From: the human T2T-CHM13v2.0 reference genome, Homo sapiens
Assembly (NCBI RefSeq): GCF_009914755.1
Contig: NC_060935.1
Length of the DNA: 64,000 bases
Reading direction: 5' to 3' (one strand)
Shown piece after piece: positions 2,365 through 28,354 of the stretch (positions within the stretch are counted from its first letter, which is position 1; each line of letters opens with the position of its first letter). Made by a program: the position numbers and the translations under genes. The notes beneath the pieces are model-generated. The model saw nothing but the letters and a program-made list of their open reading frames with translations, did no database searches and was not told where the DNA came from.

Positions 2365-2750
<386 letters not shown>

Positions 2751-3576
2751 CTAGTATCTCAGTTTATACTCTCAAGAGAGAGGTGGCCTATGGACATAGG
2801 ATACACGAAAAAACCTGCAACCCCCCCTTCTCTGGTACTCAAAGAAGGTCGAAAGACCAGCTCCAGTTCCAACTTAAAACTGGGGGTGCTGTGGCCTGTT
2901 CTTCTGTGTTTATTCCAGAGTCACAAGAGCACAGTTTTGGGGAAGGCTTATTTGTCCACGTTGATAAAACAATTAAGCCAAGATGATTGAAATCAAATAA
3001 TGGGTAAGTTGAAAGCCACTGCATTCAGAGGTGATTTGGGGTGTTAATTAGGGCCAAGGACCTTGGGGCACAGGGAATGTTTCCTATAAAATGGGAAAAC
3101 ATCTTACAAGAAGACATATGCCCACAGAGGACTAGAGGAGGAGGGGTAGCTGGGGTAAAGTTCTGGTCTCCATGTGCTTTTGCTAAAGCTGACTACATGG
3201 TGACTGTGCCTGCAGCCCTGACTCTGGGCAGCTCCACCGTGGCAGCATGACTGGTGCCTGGCCTTGGTGCTCACCAGGCCTGTGAAGCAGAGGCAAGTAA
3301 AGCCCCAGAGTGAGAGCACCTACCTCACGCCTGGGCAGTATTCACCACGGGTATCTCTGGCCCAGAGGGTTGCCCCAGTGCTGCCCTCACTGGGAAAATA
3401 CCCAGCTGTTCCCAGGTAGTTGGGATTGATTTTGGTTTTTGTAAGGAAAGGCTCTGCAGGCAGCTGTGTGTGTGGTTAGGAAGCGAAGAGGAGGCTCTGC
3501 AAACACCTCGGTGGGCAGCGGGAGCGCGAGAGTGGCACACACGGGGTCACGCAGCAGCACAGCAGGTGGCACTTAC

Positions 3577-3598
3577 TTCTGTTCAGCACGACCCTCTT
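3577..3598 (-). CDS. SHANK2: Candidate SHANK2 22-nt stop-containing microexon (R|RGSC*) in the last intron
   Basis: gttaacag|AAGAGGGTCGTGCTGAACAGAA|gtaagt with long pyrimidine/YCAY tract upstream; in frame with the phase-2 end of the giant exon gives TGA. Confidence 0.6.
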
Positions 3599-4603
3599 CT
3601 GTTAACACCGGTCATGGGAGCAAATGAAAATGACAAATGGAATGACTTGAGACAACACTGCAAAAATTAATGAACAAGAAAGGAAGAAACAGAAAAAAGC
3701 TGCTTTTCGACAGATGAAATGAAGGCAGTGGGGCAGACCCTGGCTGAAAGCCCATCCGTGGTGGTCCCTTCGGCCTGCCACAGCCTGCCCAGAGCTGAAA
3801 CATCAATATGGCATCACTTTCATAGGGAGCGTGGGAAACTCACAAGCTTGTCTTCTCCTTCTTTGGCTTGGGATAATGTAACCACTTGTAAAGAAGAAAA
3901 ATAACCAGGAAAAAAGAAAGAAAATAGTAGCATTGGAGTGAAGTTCGCCTCTGCCTGAAGCCCACTGAGAAGCAGCTTATTGCCAATTTCCTACCTCAGG
4001 TGCCTGAACTGTCTTTCCTGTGGCTTAGGGAGGATAAACGAACATTCCTGGTGGGGGAGGGCACCCCAACAGGACAAGTGCTTTGCTTCAAGTCTACATC
4101 ATGAGATGACAGCCCAGCCGTTAATCACATGGGCGTCAAGTGCTTGGGGCCTGCCAGTGTCCTGCCCCACATTGCTATAGAAAGTAACCGCCTGTGAGTG
4201 TGAGACGCAGGGTGAAGGCCACCCTGGGCTGCCCGCCCTGCCCTCCTCAGCAGCTTGACTCTCTTGGTTAATCACATTGATGATATTCACTGGATCTTCC
4301 CGGTTGCACAGATGGTTACGTTGCTAAGCAACCGCTGGGTTCCCAGTCGGAACACACAGGAATCTGCTGCCCTGATTTAGAACACAGACACATATACACA
4401 CTCACACCCAACTCCCCACCAGGTCACCACTGTCTACCCTGCCTTTTAAATCACATTCATGTAGAAATGTGAGAATTAAAAAAAATCAAGGTAATTGAGA
4501 CACTCAGAGAGGTGCTCTTATTTCATCAGTCAGTACAAGTTAATTGGGGTGAGGTAAGTAAAGAAGCAAGTGGCTTTTTTACTGTTTACAAATTCAATTT
4601 GGC

Positions 4604-4697
4604 TTTTTTTTTTTTGGAGACGGGGTCATGCAGCAATCATAGCTCACTGCAGCCTCAACCTCCTCAAGTGATCCTCCTGCATCAGCCTCTGGCATAG
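4604..4697 (-). mobile_element. Degraded Alu fragment
   Basis: polyT-ggagacggggtc...agctcactgcagcctcaacctcc. Confidence 0.75.
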
Positions 4698-6959
4698 CTA
4701 GAGTAATCTGCTCTTTAACTGTAGCTGAACATGGGCCAGGGGCTGGTCAGTGATGCTGATTAGGCATGCTGGTTCTGTCCCTCCCATGAGCCGCCTGTCA
4801 AGGGCCTGCTGGGCCTGGCCAGCACTGAGGCTGGACTTGGAGCCTGTCAACATATGTTCTCTCCAGCACACCGCACGCCTCTGCATTTTAGTGATGAGCC
4901 CCCATCTTGCATGAAAATAGCACTTATTTCCAAACTGCTTTCTTATTTTTTCCATCTTTACAGCCTCCTGATAAGCAGGGCATTGAAAAGATAGAACCGG
5001 AGGCAGCAAGTCCTTACCTAGCTTCCCCGAGGCCTGGATGTGGGGACTGGAGCCCATATTGCCCAGCTGTGCCATGTGTTATGTTGTGTCTCAGCAGCTG
5101 CCAGGCCTCCGCCTCACCCCCAGCTCTGAGTGCCATGAGGGGGTCCTGGTCTAGTTTTAGTCCTTGAGGTCTGGCCCAGAACAGGGGTGCGATAAATAAT
5201 TGTTGACTGAAGTGTTGATGGATAATATATCCTTTTCCCAGATCAGAAAGTTAAGTGACTTGACCGAGTTACAGAGCCAGACCTGGGAGTGGGGCAGGCA
5301 GCCTGAGGCTCCGCGGCAGTTCCACCAGGAATCCAGGTCTTCAGGCCAGGAGGTTCGCAGCTAAGATCAAGAAGGTGCCCACCTCTTGGGAAGAGAGATT
5401 AACCCTGTGATATGCTTTTGCCAAAAGGGCCTCATGTCCAAAATGGGGAGGAAGATTCTGACTTGAGATTTGCCTGTTGATGGGCAAGGACGAGGCACTC
5501 CCATTCATCCTTGCCCAACGCCCGCAAGTACCAGCCCCGATGGACGCACATCCTGACTAGTGCTCCCAGCCACCCACAGTCGCATTCACTGATGTCACAT
5601 TCACTTTTCCATCAGGGCCTGGAAACCCTCAAACCACCTAGTGGTCCTGAGATGCTGAAAACACCGTGAGGCAGCTTCTAGTACCAAGTCAGTTTTGAAG
5701 CAGTCTGTGCTCTGGGACCAGCTGGGCAGAGATAACTTTTTAACAACCCAAAGTTATTTGAAAATCAAGAGGCTGTCAGGATAATACTGCAGAGAGCCCA
5801 GTAGGGACTGGAGGCCTTGGGAAGGGGAGGCAGGTACCGTGAGGCAGCAGGCGCAGGGGCCTCGGGAGGAAAACTCGCCTGAGCTCACATCCCAGGTAGC
5901 CTGAACTCCCTCAGGGGCCTCTGGGACCTGGAGTTTCACAGGACAAATCTCCCTGAAGCCCATCCATCCCATGGGGAAGCGAAGGCCAATCTCGAGGTCC
6001 CTTCTGGACCCCACCCACTGCAAAGGGCTGGCGACCTAGAGGGGACTCTGGGGAACTCTTATAGGCCATGCACCCTAACAGAAGCCATGGGGGACCCCCA
6101 CAAGCACACACTCACTGCTCTGTTGCCCCCACATACAGAGCAAATGTGAAGCTGACCTCTGCCATGGAAGCGATGGTAAAGAACATCAGATTTATCTGGC
6201 TTTACTATCGGCGCCTGGTATGTGTCAGTATCTCTCAATAAAGCTGGAGGGCACATGACACCTGGGGCTCCTGGGTCATAGCAAGTTTGTTTTGGGTCAA
6301 AGCATATAAGTCAGGCAAGCTGCTGTGTTCTCCTGGGTTCCTTAGGCACTTAGCCCTTGAGTCTCCCTGCTTGTCTCCAGAATGCAGGCCCTACACTCCC
6401 ACAGCAGCCTCCCTGTGCCACCAGTGCATTCACCTGATCACACAGCTGCCTGGGCCATCTTCAGGAAACAAAGTCTGGTCATGCCAAGACTTTGCTGAAG
6501 CCCTCTGAAGGCAGCCATATCTGGAACTCCATTCAGCTCATGCCCATTACCTGCAAGCCTCTTGTGACCTGGCCCTGCCCAGCCCTCCTCATCTGGCCAT
6601 GGTTTCATGAGCACAGAAGGCACTTTCTGGCCTCAGGGCCTTGTACTCTCTGTCCCGTGCCTGGGATGCTCCACTCCTGGTTTTCTGCAAGGTTGGCTCC
6701 TTTTTAAATTTCTGGTCATTCAAATGTCATTTCCTTGCAGAGTGTCAGTCCCTTTCTGCACATGCTCACTGTAACCTGCTAGGGCATCCTAGTCCGCCCT
6801 TTCTGCATGTGGTCAGGGTTAACCTGCTGGTGTCCCGTGGCTCTCTTCTGCACGTGGTTATTTTTACCTGCTGGTGCATCACAGCCCCTTTCTGCACTGG
6901 TCACTAACCTATTAGCATGTTGTGGCTCCTTTGTGGCATTTGTCACAGTTTGGGTTTGT

Positions 6960-11736: not shown

Positions 11737-14143
11737 CTTGGAGCGAGGCTGGCGGACTTGGCTCCCATTGGTGAATCCAGTCCTTCCCCCGGCTTTGCCA
11801 ATTTCTCTCGGTTCATTTGCTGTAGGATAGAGTTCAATTCACTAATAACGTTTGCCTTTGGGCCTGAGAGAATCGGGCTTTTGATCTCTGTGACGTCGCC
11901 CCACAACTTGGAGGTCCTTGGCTGGAGAACCTTGGCCATCCCAGGCTGGGCACTGCCCGGCGGGGGCGGGGGAGCGGGCGGGGGGATAACAAAGCTATCT
12001 ACATCTTCTTCCACGAGCGCGTCTTGATAAAGTGCATTGCTTTTGTGAATGATGGGCTTCATTTTTGGCTTAGGAGGTACTGGGGGTTTGTCAACCATAA
12101 ATGCTTGCCCATCTGCATAGACTGTGCAGGTGTCCACATTCTCTCCACCTTCGGAAGACAGGGTGGAGATGCTAGACACGGTGGAGATAGTGCTGGTCGT
12201 CTCGAGGTGGTGGTCGCTGCTACTCCGGCTGTCCACCTCCTCGATCCCAGAGTCGGCGACGGCGTCAAAGCTTTCAGGGGGTGGCAGGAATGAGGCAGGC
12301 AGACAGTTTGAAAGACTGGCTGGCTTCTTGCTGTCTGCAGAGTTGGTTGGTTGGCTGGAGTTCAACGAAGGGGACTGAGGGGTGTCGCTTTTCTTCTGCT
12401 TCACTAAGTCTGAGAGAGCCGGGACAGAAGCTGCCCGGTCATCGGGGATATCAAAACTATTTGCAAATTCCAGGGGAGGAGGCAATGGCTCTGTAAAAAT
12501 AAAATCCTCATCCAAGTCCACGGATGCCAGAGGGGGAGGAGGGATGCGGAATGGCAAAATCACCGCCTCTTCCATGGAGCCCACCGCGACGATGGTTCTG
12601 CCGGGCACGGTGGTGGGCTCGGGGGCAGCGGAGATCTGTAAAGCACCTTCGGTTTCGGAAACACCTTCTGGCACCTCGGACGGCGAGCTGTCTGGCTTCA
12701 TCTCCACCTCTGCCTTCTCGTCCTCTTCCTGCAGGGCGTTGTCCAGCTTAGTGGCGTCCACGGTGTGCACCATCAGCAGGCCAGCCGACTTCTGCTGGGA
12801 CGTGTCCATGATGTCGATCAGCATGTTCTTCTTGTCATCGCCTTTCCGGTCTCGGCCCAGGTCGGTCTCGTACTTGTTCTCCGTCTCCTGCCGCCTCAGG
12901 GGTCCCCGGGTGTTCTGCCTGGTGACCGTAGGGAAGCCGGCATCCAGGCTGGGCCGCATTTTGGTATCAATGTAAAGAGGTTTGTTGAGGTCGGCCTTGG
13001 GGGCCTCCCCTTTGGGTCCCTGTTGAGACTCCTTCATGGCTCGGTCCCTTGCGGAGAGTGCCAGGGCCAGCGGGGAGCTGGGATCAAGCAGCCGCCCTGT
13101 GAGTGGGTGGACATAATTCCCGGGGCCGGCTGTGCCGCTGCTCGCGGAGGGCACTGCTGGGCTGCTCTCGGGCCCCTGGGCTTTGGACGTGGAATTCAGC
13201 GGCCTCCCAGCCTCACCCGGAGCACTGGCCTCGGCGCCACCCACGAAATGGTTTTCGGGCTCCCTGGGCGTGGCACTCGGCATGGGGGATGACAGCTGCT
13301 CAGCGCTGTCCTCGTCAGCAAAATCCCCCTCCTCGGGGAACATGGAGGGCCGCGTCCTGGGGGCGGGTGGCCCCAGGCCCACATCCTCATCCCCCAGGTC
13401 TGTGGAGAGGAAGGCCGGGGAGTTCCTCCTGGCTTCCAGCCGCTTCTCACGGTCGCGGACGGCTCCGGCGATGGCGGCGGCAAAGGGGCTGCTGACGGTC
13501 AGGCTTTCGTCAGGCCGCAGCTGGCTCGGTGGCTCCGGGGCCTGGGGGTCGATCTCCATGCTGCTGCCCTGGCTGCTCTTGCCGCTGCTGCTGGTGGACG
13601 GCTCCTTCACGATGATGGTCGGGATAGGGATGGAGCACGTCTTCTCGGGGCTGTCCTCCACGTTGGACTGCTTCACCAGCATCCCCTTCCGCCTGGCGGG
13701 CTTGGCGGGGACGTAGACGGCTTTGCTGGCGATCTTCCCCACCTCTGAGTATGGGTTTTCTGGCATCTGGCCTCTCTTGTTGCGGAAGTTGGCTTGCGGG
13801 CCGGCATTCCGACTGTAGAGGTCTTCAGAGTCCAAGGAGTAGCGGTCCAGCTCTCTCCTGAAGTACATCCCCTTCTCCCTCATCATGGTGGCCACGGTGT
13901 CGGACCTGGTGGCGGGGGACACCTTGGCGGCAGAATTCTGATTGAACGCAGGCTTAATCGTCCCGTAGACTCTTGGAGTTGGGGACTTGGGGCAGTTGTA
14001 AGTGGTTGGGGAAGGTGGTGGTGGGGACGGGGGCACAGACTGCGGTGGAGGGGGGATGTCCTCAGAGGTGTCCGGCATGGACAGGCTTCTGGTGAACTTC
14101 AGCATTGGAGGAGCCAGAAACTGCCGCTCTTCCTCTGTTATTC
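11737..14143 (-). CDS. SHANK2: SHANK2 giant proline-rich exon, 2407 nt (GITEEERQFLAPPMLKFTRSLSM...AKSASLAPR), phase 1->2
   Basis: 790-aa ORF 11733-14105; ttttctgcttgtag| acceptor at 14144-14145 and CCAAG|gtaagt donor at 11731-11736; sequence recognisable as the Shank2 proline-rich region. Confidence 0.99.
12066..12089 (-). other. SHANK2: Cortactin SH3-binding motif KPPVPPKP within SHANK2
   Basis: Translation AAA CCC CCA GTA CCT CCT AAG CCA; established CortBP1/Shank motif. Confidence 0.85.
12465..12482 (-). other. SHANK2: Homer EVH1-binding PPxxF motif (PPPLEF) within SHANK2
   Basis: Translation CCT CCT CCC CTG GAA TTT; established Shank-Homer ligand. Confidence 0.85.
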
Positions 14144-15750: not shown

Positions 15751-15771
15751 CTGATAGAAAGATTCTGCTGT
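15751..15771 (-). CDS. SHANK2: SHANK2 21-nt microexon ACAGCAGAATCTTTCTATCAG (D-S-R-I-F-L-S), phase 1->1
   Basis: tttcctcctgtcag| acceptor, CAG|gttagt donor; gives RQKSI-DSRIFLS-GITEEERQF. Confidence 0.9.
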
Positions 15772-16699: not shown

Positions 16700-16811
16700 C
16701 TATTGATTTCTGCCTTCGCATCGTACCTCGAGGGATGCCCAGAAACGGGGCTTTTGGGCTCCCAGGAACAGTGGGCGTCATCACGGCGATTCCTTGGCGT
16801 TCGTACACAGA
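16700..16811 (-). CDS. SHANK2: SHANK2 coding exon, 112 nt (SVYERQGIAVMTPTVPGSPKAPFLGIPRGTMRRQKSI), phase 0->1
   Basis: ctctctggtttgcag| acceptor, ATAG|gtaaga donor; conserved Shank RQKSI motif. Confidence 0.96.
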
Positions 16812-26992: not shown

Positions 26993-27013
26993 CCTTCTTC
27001 TTCCGGACCGAGG
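26993..27013 (-). CDS. SHANK2: SHANK2 21-nt microexon CCTCGGTCCGGAAGAAGAAGG (A-S-V-R-K-K-K), phase 1->1
   Basis: cccctttctgtttgcaag| acceptor, AGG|gtaagg donor; yields VDK-ASVRKKK-DKPEE in frame. Confidence 0.9.
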
Positions 27014-28345: not shown

Positions 28346-28354
28346 CTTTATCCA
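28346..28354 (-). CDS. SHANK2: SHANK2 9-nt microexon TGGATAAAG (V-D-K), phase 1->1
   Basis: Branch-like ctaac at 28390-28394, U-rich tract, ctcactag| acceptor, AAG|gtaagc donor; gives ELEEL-VDK as in the SHANK2 protein I recognise. Confidence 0.9.

What the first reader, a model, noticed from the sequence alone, without database searches (positions are those of the whole stretch)
3571..3601. Hidden 22-nt stop microexon in the last SHANK2 intron: an NMD-escaping switch that deletes the SAM domain
Seen: the minus strand reads ...ccggtgttaacag|AAGAGGGTCGTGCTGAACAGAA|gtaagt, a CAG acceptor and consensus GTAAGT donor 22 nt apart, in unique (non-repeat) sequence. The giant exon ends in phase 2 (CCA AG|), so inclusion gives AG+A AGA GGG TCG TGC TGA = ...LAPR-RGSC-stop. 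Knowledge: the next exon carries the SAM domain, needed for Shank multimerisation and synaptic targeting, and is terminal. Inference: the stop lies 6 nt before the final junction, so it should escape the 50-55-nt NMD rule and give a stable SAM-less scaffold that keeps PDZ, Homer and cortactin sites. It is too short for the ORF track. SAM-truncating Shank splice variants may already be reported in rodents, so novelty needs checking.
Basis: partly seen in the sequence, partly recalled or inferred. Interest (0 to 1): 0.85.

Follow-up and report, generated by a model that had tools for sequence, protein, structure and literature searches.

The report
Conserved stop microexon in SHANK2
The 22 bases are the end of an already annotated SHANK2 exon, and they also match a tiny stop-carrying exon used in cat and turtle gene models, which would give a SHANK2 scaffold protein without its SAM self-assembly domain.

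Summary

It is not hidden. RefSeq NM_001441039.1 already has an 81-nt exon at 3577-3657 with the same GTAAGT donor. Its acceptor is 59 nt upstream and its stop is at 3612-3614, giving the tail S-VVSSHSICHFHLLP. The next exon is the last exon in 32 of 32 SHANK2 transcripts and holds the SAM domain. The stops lie 35 nt (81-nt form) or 6 nt (22-nt form) before the last junction, so NMD escape is predicted for both.

However, two SAM-less SHANK2 gene models, from a clouded leopard and a softshell turtle, end in exactly ...R-RGSC. Chance would give this about 3e-4 times per intron. The 22-nt exon is therefore deeply conserved.

Use of the 22-nt form in humans could not be tested here. A dense YGCY cluster just after the donor suggests MBNL control. 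A published mouse Shank3 microexon at the homologous junction is the closest analogue.

The parts
3577..3598 (-). With the AG left by the giant exon it encodes R-RGSC-stop.
   Evidence: The same tail ends P0209 (Neofelis nebulosa) and P0224 (Pelodiscus sinensis). It is not annotated as a separate exon in human RefSeq.
3599..3601 (-). CAG acceptor of the 22-nt form.
   Evidence: Matrix score 1.34 bits, the 2.5th percentile of 277 chr11 acceptors. The only UGC upstream is at -24.
3571..3576 (-). GTAAGT donor, shared by the 22-nt form and the 81-nt form.
   Evidence: This is the annotated donor of the NM_001441039.1 exon. GAAgtaagt scores 8.07 bits, the 60th percentile of 189 chr11 donors.
3583..3585 (-). 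TGA stop of the 22-nt form, 6 nt before the last exon junction.
3577..3657 (-). RefSeq 81-nt alternative exon (NM_001441039.1), coding at 3612-3657. It encodes S-VVSSHSICHFHLLP-stop.
   Evidence: It is present in 1 of 32 SHANK2 transcripts.
3612..3614 (-). TGA stop of the 81-nt form, 35 nt before the last exon junction.
   Evidence: Coding end in the annotation and translation.
3658..3701 (-). AG acceptor and long U-rich pyrimidine tract of the 81-nt exon (cttttttctgtttcttcctttcttgttcattaatttttgcag).
   Evidence: The pyrimidine fraction over -50..-3 is 0.73 with a longest run of 14, against 0.65 and 5 for the 22-nt acceptor. Matrix score 2.93 bits, the 6.5th percentile.
3534..3571 (-). Cluster of YGCY / TGCT motifs in the intron directly after the shared donor (gtaagTGCCacCTGCTgTGCTGCTGCGtg...). 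This is a candidate MBNL-binding site.
   Evidence: There are 5 YGCY in the first 40 nt, against 0.64 expected. Only 59 of 63,961 40-nt windows on this strand have 5 or more, and the other 8 annotated donors have 0-2. The function is inferred, not tested.
11737..14143 (-). Giant proline-rich exon. It ends in phase 2 (CCA AG|), so the first base of the next exon completes an Arg or Ser codon.

Best explanation
The site is one alternative stop exon in the last SHANK2 intron, with one donor (3577) and two acceptors.

The two forms:
- The upstream acceptor (3657) gives the 81-nt exon that RefSeq already annotates in humans.
This is the evolutionarily conserved form, because cat and turtle SHANK2 gene models end in exactly its predicted peptide.

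Consequence (inferred from the annotation and the translations). Either form puts a stop codon less than 50 nt before the final exon junction. The mRNA should therefore escape EJC-dependent NMD. It would encode SHANK2 with its N-terminal domains, PDZ domain and proline-rich region. The last 190 residues, including the SAM domain, are replaced by 5 residues (R-RGSC) or 15 residues (S-VVSSHSICHFHLLP).

Function (inferred from papers). The SAM domain is needed for SHANK2 multimerisation and synaptic targeting, so the product should be a non-polymerising, largely extrasynaptic scaffold.

Regulation (a weaker inference). The YGCY/TGCT cluster just after the donor suggests that MBNL proteins promote inclusion. 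This has been published for the microexon at the homologous junction of mouse Shank3.
For: Shown here:
- Sequence, phase and stops.
- The RefSeq exon with the same donor is in 1 of 32 transcripts, and the terminal exon is shared by 32 of 32.
- The SAM domain is at residues 1742-1805 of the 1808-aa human isoform 7, downstream of the junction.
- P0209 (Neofelis nebulosa isoform X8, 1711 aa, cluster of 4) ends ...SLAPRRGSC. P0224 (Pelodiscus sinensis isoform X4, 1642 aa, cluster of 14) ends ...SLSTRRGSC. Neither has a SAM domain in Pfam. These are 2 of the 251 proteins fetched.
- The chance expectation of AG + R-RGSC-stop is 2.6e-8 per position, or 3e-4 per intron.
- The YGCY cluster is rare.

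From papers:
- The SAM domain is essential for postsynaptic localisation (PMC8760046, passages).
- A mouse Shank3 microexon after ...AAAR gives a short new C-terminus and is mis-spliced without MBNL. MBNL binding downstream of an exon promotes its inclusion. A 'SHANK2 miE' is mis-spliced in DM1 cortex (PMC12148930, passages).
Against: - No human transcript evidence for the 22-nt acceptor could be examined. RefSeq has only the 81-nt form.
- The 22-nt acceptor is weak: 2.5th percentile, with a longest pyrimidine run of 5.
- The two supporting proteins are automated gene models, and I could not see their RNA support.
- SAM-less isoforms are usually hidden inside 90% clusters. The human 1657-aa isoform itself never appeared as a separate hit. 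The searches therefore say nothing about rodents or primates.
- None of the 251 proteins carries the 81-nt tail, so the conservation of that form is unknown.
- The exon is in only 1 of 32 annotated transcripts, so abundance may be low.
- The SRRM4-type UGC within 2-20 nt upstream is absent.
- The MBNL idea rests on motifs found after the fact. The text I could read does not say which SHANK2 microexon the DM1 paper means.
- No protein-level evidence was seen.
Confidence: 0.55

Rival explanations
1. In humans only the annotated 81-nt exon is used. The internal CAG at 3599-3601 is a silent AG inside that exon. Its match to the cat and turtle tail reflects ancestry, not present human use.
For: - RefSeq (curated and Gnomon models, 32 transcripts) holds only the 3657 acceptor.
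- The upstream acceptor has the longer pyrimidine tract (0.73 against 0.65; longest run 14 against 5) and the higher matrix score (2.93 against 1.34 bits).
- It comes first, ahead of two further AGs.
Against: - All 16 coding bases, the AG and the GT of the ancestral microexon are intact in humans. This is easier to explain by continued use.
- The matrix barely separates the two acceptors, which fall at the 6.5th and 2.5th percentiles.
- My recollection, not tested here, is that microexons typically have weak acceptors.
Confidence: 0.27
2. The exon is spliced in at a low level in several species but makes no stable or functional protein. On this view it is splicing noise, or a way of lowering the output of full-length SHANK2, and the conservation reflects an intronic regulatory element.
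For: - It is in only 1 of 32 human transcripts.
- None of the SHANK2 isoform descriptions in the passages I read mention it.
- No protein evidence was seen.
Against: - An element under non-coding constraint would not be expected to keep the peptide and the stop identical from mammals to a turtle.
- Both stops sit where NMD is not expected, so the mRNA should be translated.
Confidence: 0.13
3. The reader's pairing of a CAG with a GTAAGT 22 nt away is a chance cryptic pair with no biology.
For: - 5 of 11 GTAAGT sites on this strand have a YAG 3-30 nt upstream, and a stop within 7 codons occurs at 21.7% of random positions.
- 26% of all minus-strand AGs score as well as this acceptor.
Against: - The donor is annotated.
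- The exact tail is found in two distant gene models, against an expectation of 3e-4 per intron.
Confidence: 0.03

Closest known systems
Human RefSeq exon 3577-3657 of NM_001441039.1 (SHANK2 isoform of 1657 aa)
   Same: Same intron, same donor, an in-frame stop less than 50 nt from the last junction, and a SAM-less product. It contains the 22 nt.
   Different: The acceptor is 59 nt upstream. The stop is at 3612-3614 rather than 3583-3585. The tail is S-VVSSHSICHFHLLP rather than R-RGSC. No homologue of that tail was found among the 251 proteins fetched.
SHANK2 isoform X8 of Neofelis nebulosa (P0209) and isoform X4 of Pelodiscus sinensis (P0224), public automated gene models
   Same: They end in ...R-RGSC, exactly the human 22-nt reading. 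They have FERM_f0, Ank, SH3 and PDZ domains but no SAM domain.
   Different: They are from other species. Only the proteins were seen, not the exon coordinates or the RNA support.
Mouse Shank3 microexon between the giant exon and the SAM exon (Sznajder et al. 2025, PMC12148930)
   Same: The junction is homologous: the peptide changes right after ...KKSPIAAAR. The human SHANK1, SHANK2 and SHANK3 last introns all split an Arg codon as AG|R. The result is a short new C-terminus without the SAM domain. The microexon is MBNL-dependent, and the SHANK2 exon has a YGCY cluster downstream.
   Different: By my own back-calculation the Shank3 microexon shifts the frame, about 28 nt from the printed peptide, rather than carrying its own stop. 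No sequence similarity was found: there is no R-RGSC-stop pattern in the SHANK1 intron or in the 3' 7.5 kb of the SHANK3 intron.
Short SHANK2 isoform AF141901, called SHANK2C in one review (exon 22b alternative 3' end; Leblond et al. 2012, PMC3276563; Eltokhi et al. 2018, PMC6060255)
   Same: It is a natural SHANK2 isoform that ends before the SAM domain.
   Different: It ends in an extension of exon 22, upstream of the giant exon, so it also lacks the proline-rich region. It sits at a different place in the gene. It is reported as not detectable in mouse or rat.
Mouse Shank3 novel exons 21a-c and the E21-22S III/IV variants (PMC11328446; PMC4113141)
   Same: These are alternative exons or splice variants that give early stops and SAM-less isoforms.
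   Different: They are in a different gene. They were described from long reads and RT-PCR in mouse. Any relation to the SHANK2 exon was not tested.
SRRM4-dependent neuronal microexons, such as the 9-nt Shank2 microexon (PMC11283458)
   Same: Same gene and same size class.
   Different: Those are frame-preserving internal microexons. The UGC expected 2-20 nt upstream (criterion) is absent here, where the only UGC is at -24.

Membership tests
Annotated RefSeq exon 3577-3657 (NM_001441039.1) | Same 5' splice site (donor after 3577) | tested here: met
   The annotation gives an exon end at 3577. The sequence there is GAA|gtaagt.
Annotated RefSeq exon 3577-3657 (NM_001441039.1) | Same 3' splice site and same stop codon | tested here: not met
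The annotated acceptor is at 3657 and the stop at 3612-3614.
Conserved cassette microexon (about 3-30 nt) | A length of 30 nt or less, flanked by AG and GT | tested here: met
   22 nt, cag|...|gtaagt.
Conserved cassette microexon (about 3-30 nt) | Conservation of the exon and its use in other species | tested here: met
   2 of 251 fetched SHANK2 proteins (a felid and a turtle) end in R-RGSC. Chance expectation is 3e-4 per intron. The DNA of those species was not seen.
Conserved cassette microexon (about 3-30 nt) | Junction reads or transcripts in humans | not testable with these tools
RefSeq has no such transcript.
SRRM4-dependent neuronal microexon | Intronic UGC motif 2-20 nt upstream of the exon (criterion as stated in PMC12148930) | tested here: not met
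   The only UGC in the 62 nt upstream is at -24.
MBNL-activated exon | YGCY/TGCT cluster in the downstream intron | tested here: met
   There are 5 YGCY in +1..+40 against 0.64 expected. Only 59 of 63,961 windows reach 5, and the other 8 annotated donors have 0-2. This is a motif-only test made after the fact.
MBNL-activated exon | MBNL binding, and a change of inclusion on MBNL loss | not testable with these tools
   A 'SHANK2 miE' is mis-spliced in DM1 cortex, but the text does not say which one, and the supplements are closed.
Premature stop that escapes NMD (50-55-nt rule) | The stop lies less than 50-55 nt upstream of the last exon-exon junction | tested here: met
   The distance is 6 nt for the 22-nt form and 35 nt for the 81-nt form. 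The downstream exon is last in 32 of 32 transcripts.
Premature stop that escapes NMD (50-55-nt rule) | The mRNA is actually stable and insensitive to UPF1 | not testable with these tools
   This needs an experiment. The 3'UTR would be about 5.6 kb, against 5.0 kb in the canonical mRNA (arithmetic).
Poison exon (NMD-inducing cassette) | The stop lies more than 50-55 nt upstream of the last junction | tested here: not met
   See the distances above. RefSeq also files the 81-nt form as coding (NM_).
SHANK C-terminal switch microexon at the giant-exon/SAM-exon junction (published for mouse Shank3) | Same intron and same phase | tested here: met
   SHANK2 has CCA AG|gtaagt. SHANK1 has CAG AG|gtaagc ... 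ttccag|A. SHANK3 has ...ccgcag|G. The Shank3 peptide diverges after ...AAAR.
SHANK C-terminal switch microexon at the giant-exon/SAM-exon junction (published for mouse Shank3) | Sequence homology between the paralogous microexons | tested here: not met
   There is no AG+R-RGSC-stop pattern in the SHANK1 last intron (3.5 kb) or in the 3' 7.5 kb of the SHANK3 last intron. A whole-genome search with 181 nt found only the query itself.
SHANK2 AF141901 / exon 22b isoform | Ends in an alternative 3' end of exon 22 | tested here: not met
   Exon 22 lies upstream of the giant exon. The present exon lies downstream of it.

The most novel reading that the evidence does not exclude
The 22-nt exon may be an ancient microexon, at least as old as amniotes, that acts as a 'SAM-off' switch. 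It may have counterparts at the same split Arg codon in SHANK3 (published for mouse) and perhaps in SHANK1, and be driven by MBNL proteins through the TGCT cluster after its donor. It may also be the unnamed 'SHANK2 miE' that is mis-spliced in myotonic dystrophy cortex. If so, the ratio of polymerising to non-polymerising SHANK scaffolds would be set by one developmental splicing programme that is disturbed in an autism-linked disease.
Probability: 0.2. Interest if true: 0.65.

Novelty: new member of a known kind. Interest (0 to 1): 0.42.

Why it matters
SHANK2 is a high-confidence autism gene. Its SAM domain is what lets it polymerise and reach the synapse (passages). A natural, conserved exon that removes the SAM domain but keeps the PDZ domain and the proline-rich region would make an endogenous non-polymerising SHANK2.

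This bears on four practical matters:
- How truncating and deep-intronic variants near 3570-3660 are read.
- What C-terminal antibodies and exon-24/25 knock-outs actually remove.
- Splice-switching therapy.
- The link between MBNL loss and autism-like traits.

The human exon is already annotated in an 81-nt form. What is new is that the shorter 22-nt form, not in human RefSeq, is the one conserved from mammals to a turtle.

Tried and rejected
1. Splice-site matrix. I built it from 277 AG acceptors (of 278 sites) and 189 GT donors (of 194 sites) in 20 gene-dense 10-kb pieces of chr11. It hardly separates the two acceptors (2.93 against 1.34 bits, both in the weak tail), and it favours C-rich tracts. 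It is reported but is not decisive.

2. Protein search with the human giant exon. It gave 288 hits at E<=1e-20 among 1,937 candidates, with 120 listed; 4,424 sample-only candidates had been left out before scoring. No listed protein had either tail. The SAM-less hits were models that stop at the exon edge or read into the intron. No human, ape or rodent entry was in range.

3. Search for the 81-nt tail. It was found in 0 of 251 proteins, allowing up to 5 errors.

4. Rfam over 2500-4700 found nothing at the exon. Folding 3520-3680 gave z = +1.51, with 191 of 200 shuffles folding at least as well, so there is no special structure.

5. Paralogue scan. There is no R-RGSC-stop in the SHANK1 or SHANK3 last introns. 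The end of SHANK3 exon 21 lay outside the piece I fetched. The candidate stop microexons found there are unverified.

6. Literature. Nine searches were run. I read passages only, in 13 papers: PMC3276563, PMC6060255, PMC11328446, PMC5731535, PMC4113141, PMC9579136, PMC11283458, PMC12953806, PMC11449796, PMC8760046, PMC12148930, PMC10462192 and PMC11447829. None of the passages describes an exon between the giant exon and the SAM exon of SHANK2.
   - Not held, and possibly relevant: Lim et al. 1999, Jiang and Ehlers 2013 and Irimia et al. 2014. I recall that Lim et al. reported Shank splice variants affecting the SAM region, but I could not check this.
   - Supplementary tables, for example those of PMC12148930, are closed. 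They may name the SHANK2 microexon.
Full report
**The observation**

On the minus strand the window reads ...ccggtgttaacag|AAGAGGGTCGTGCTGAACAGAA|gtaagt. The exon is 3598-3577, the CAG is 3601-3599 and the GTAAGT is 3576-3571. The giant exon ends ...GCT CCA AG|gtaagt at 11737, which is phase 2. The 22-nt reading is therefore AG|A = R, then RGSC, then TGA at 3585-3583, 6 nt before the donor. The stretch is unique in the reference: a 181-nt query found only itself. No masked repeat of 100 nt or more lies between 2696 and 9822.

**What the annotation says**

Of 32 SHANK2 transcripts on this assembly, one includes an 81-nt exon at 3577-3657, coding at 3612-3657. It is the curated NM_001441039.1, with 24 exons and 1657 aa.
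- Its acceptor lies 59 nt upstream (ttaatttttgcag|TGTTGTC) and follows a long U-rich tract.
- Its reading is AG|T = S, then VVSSHSICHFHLLP, then TGA at 3614-3612, 35 nt before the donor.
- All 32 transcripts end in the same terminal exon, at window coordinates -5721 to -136.

In human isoform 7 (P0127, 1808 aa) Pfam places the SAM domain at residues 1742-1805, inside the 190 residues that the terminal exon encodes. The length arithmetic agrees: 1832 - 190 + 15 = 1657.

That idea is a stop exon in the last intron, a stop too close to the last junction for the 50-55-nt NMD rule, and a SAM-less product that keeps the PDZ domain and the proline-rich exon. The 22 nt are the 3' end of that annotated exon.

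Judged from the human sequence alone, it is not.
- There are 11 GTAAGT sites on this strand. Three are annotated donors, and 5 have a YAG 3-30 nt upstream.
- A stop within 7 in-frame codons occurs at 21.7% of random positions.
Of 5,069 minus-strand AGs, 1,321 do as well or better.
- The annotated acceptor scores 2.93 bits, the 6.5th percentile; 882 AGs do as well or better.
- The shared donor scores 8.07 bits, the 60th percentile of 189 donors.
- The upstream acceptor has the better pyrimidine tract: 0.73 against 0.65 over -50..-3, with a longest run of 14 against 5.
- The matrix does not separate the two acceptors well.

**The turn**

I searched public proteins for SHANK2 forms that stop after the giant exon, using three queries.
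- The human exon as query could only reach proteins of up to 1402 aa and found neither tail.
- With a tarsier SHANK2 (P0002) as query, 470 proteins passed E<=1e-60 and 120 were listed. One lacked the SAM domain: P0209, 'SHANK2 isoform X8 [Neofelis nebulosa]', 1711 aa, a cluster of 4. It ends ...TKPASLAPRRGSC.
- With the last 40 residues of P0209 as query, 344 proteins passed and 120 were listed. The only other full-coverage hit without a SAM domain was P0224, 'SHANK2 isoform X4 [Pelodiscus sinensis]', 1642 aa, a cluster of 14. It ends ...TKTASLSTRRGSC.

A fresh Pfam scan shows FERM_f0, Ank, SH3 and PDZ domains in both, and no SAM domain. So 2 of 251 fetched proteins, from a cat and a turtle, end in exactly the peptide that the human 22-nt reading predicts. 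None carries the 81-nt tail.

The pattern AG + R-RGSC-stop is expected 2.6e-8 times per position, or 3e-4 times per 12-kb intron. It occurred in 3 of 2,000 shuffles, and once in the window, at this site.

Limits of this evidence:
- These are automated gene models, and I saw neither their DNA nor their RNA support.
- SAM-less isoforms are mostly hidden inside 90% clusters. The human 1657-aa isoform never surfaced as a hit. Silence for primates and rodents therefore means nothing.

**How it most likely works**

- Shown: one donor, two acceptors, and two different in-frame stops, both less than 50 nt from the last junction.
- Inferred: the mRNAs escape EJC-dependent NMD. RefSeq files the 81-nt form as coding, which fits.
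- Inferred: they encode SHANK2 whose last 190 residues are replaced by 5 or 15 residues.
- The giant exon's translation still contains LPPPLEF and KPPVPPKPK. I recall these as the Homer and cortactin sites, but did not test this.
[quoted passage not shown] The SAM domain is essential for postsynaptic localisation (PMC8760046).
- The product should therefore be a non-polymerising, largely extrasynaptic scaffold.

**Regulation**

The first 40 intron bases after the donor hold 5 YGCY motifs (gtaagTGCCacCTGCTgTGCTGCTGCGtg), against 0.64 expected. Only 59 of 63,961 40-nt windows on this strand reach 5, and the other 8 annotated donors have 0-2.

PMC12148930 (passages) states the following:
- MBNL binding downstream of an exon promotes its inclusion.
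- A mouse Shank3 microexon changes the C-terminus right after ...KKSPIAAAR to a short peptide, and it is mis-spliced without MBNL.
- A 'SHANK2 miE' is mis-spliced in DM1 prefrontal cortex. The text, and the preprint, do not say which microexon, and the supplements are closed.

The SRRM4-type UGC 2-20 nt upstream is absent here; the only UGC is at -24. MBNL control is a lead drawn from motifs noticed after the fact, not a result.

**Paralogues**

The last introns of SHANK1 and SHANK3 split the same Arg codon in the same phase. The three junctions are therefore homologous. I found no R-RGSC-stop there and no DNA similarity. Unverified candidates are listed under 'noticed in passing'.

**Comparison with what is known**

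- Closest in the database is the 81-nt RefSeq exon.
- Closest in print is the Shank3 microexon above.
- Also related are the mouse Shank3 exons 21a-c and variants E21-22S III/IV.
- The known short SHANK2 isoform AF141901 ends in exon 22b, upstream of the giant exon, and is a different thing.
- Nine literature searches and the passages I read in 13 papers gave no description of this SHANK2 exon. Lim et al. 1999, Jiang and Ehlers 2013 and Irimia et al. 2014 were not held.

**Verdict**

- What is new is modest: an unannotated human alternative-acceptor form that is the conserved one.
- Use of the 22-nt form in humans, its abundance, its regulation and the existence of the protein all remain to be shown.

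Noticed in passing
window 3534-3571 (-): There is a dense YGCY/TGCT cluster directly after the shared donor: 5 in 40 nt against 0.64 expected. It is the only such cluster among the 9 annotated SHANK2 donors in the window. This suggests an MBNL site.
   Followed up: partly
window 28346-28354 (-): This is an annotated 9-nt SHANK2 microexon. A 9-nt Shank2 microexon is used as an SRRM4-responsive reporter in PMC11283458. I infer they are the same exon from length alone.
   Followed up: no
window 15751-15771 and 26993-27013 (-): These are two annotated 21-nt SHANK2 microexons with weak acceptors, at the 18th and 7th percentiles. They probably belong to the 'brain-specific exons 19, 20 and 23' of PMC3276563. 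The mapping was not checked.
   Followed up: no
window 16700-16811 (-): Some transcripts use 16727 instead of 16700 as the exon end, an alternative donor 27 nt apart. [quoted passage not shown]
   Followed up: no
L023 (SHANK1, chr19, minus strand), last intron: This is the only candidate stop microexon in the 3.5-kb SHANK1 last intron under my filter: ctgccacttctttctgacag|TCCCTGAAATCT|gtgagt. It would give S-P-stop in the shared phase, and it has a good pyrimidine tract. It is unverified.
   Followed up: no
L022 (SHANK3, chr22, plus strand), about 1390-1450: There are two adjacent candidates in the SHANK3 last intron: cag|GTGCTGAGA|gtgagg (R-C-stop) and tccag|TGCTGTCCCTTGA|gtaagt (S-AVP-stop). 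The second resembles the AVVPS of the published mouse Shank3 microexon peptide. In all, 19 candidates passed the filter, so chance is not excluded.
   Followed up: partly
window 11737; L022; L023: The last intron of SHANK1, SHANK2 and SHANK3 splits an Arg codon in the same phase (AG|R). The intron position is therefore shared by all three paralogues.
   Followed up: yes
window 2508-2654 (+): Rfam gives a match below the gathering score to signal recognition particle RNA (55.3 bits against a threshold of 70), inside the masked repeat 2368-2695. It is most likely an Alu element.
   Followed up: no
window 3585-3616 (-): In the predicted fold, CAUGACC (which overlaps the 81-nt form's stop) pairs with GGUCGUG inside the microexon. 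This encloses the 22-nt form's 3' splice site in a 16-nt loop. The whole fold is no more stable than shuffles, z = +1.51.
   Followed up: no
SHANK2 transcript NR_110766.2 (window exons): One RefSeq non-coding transcript skips the giant exon 11737-14143 altogether.
   Followed up: no
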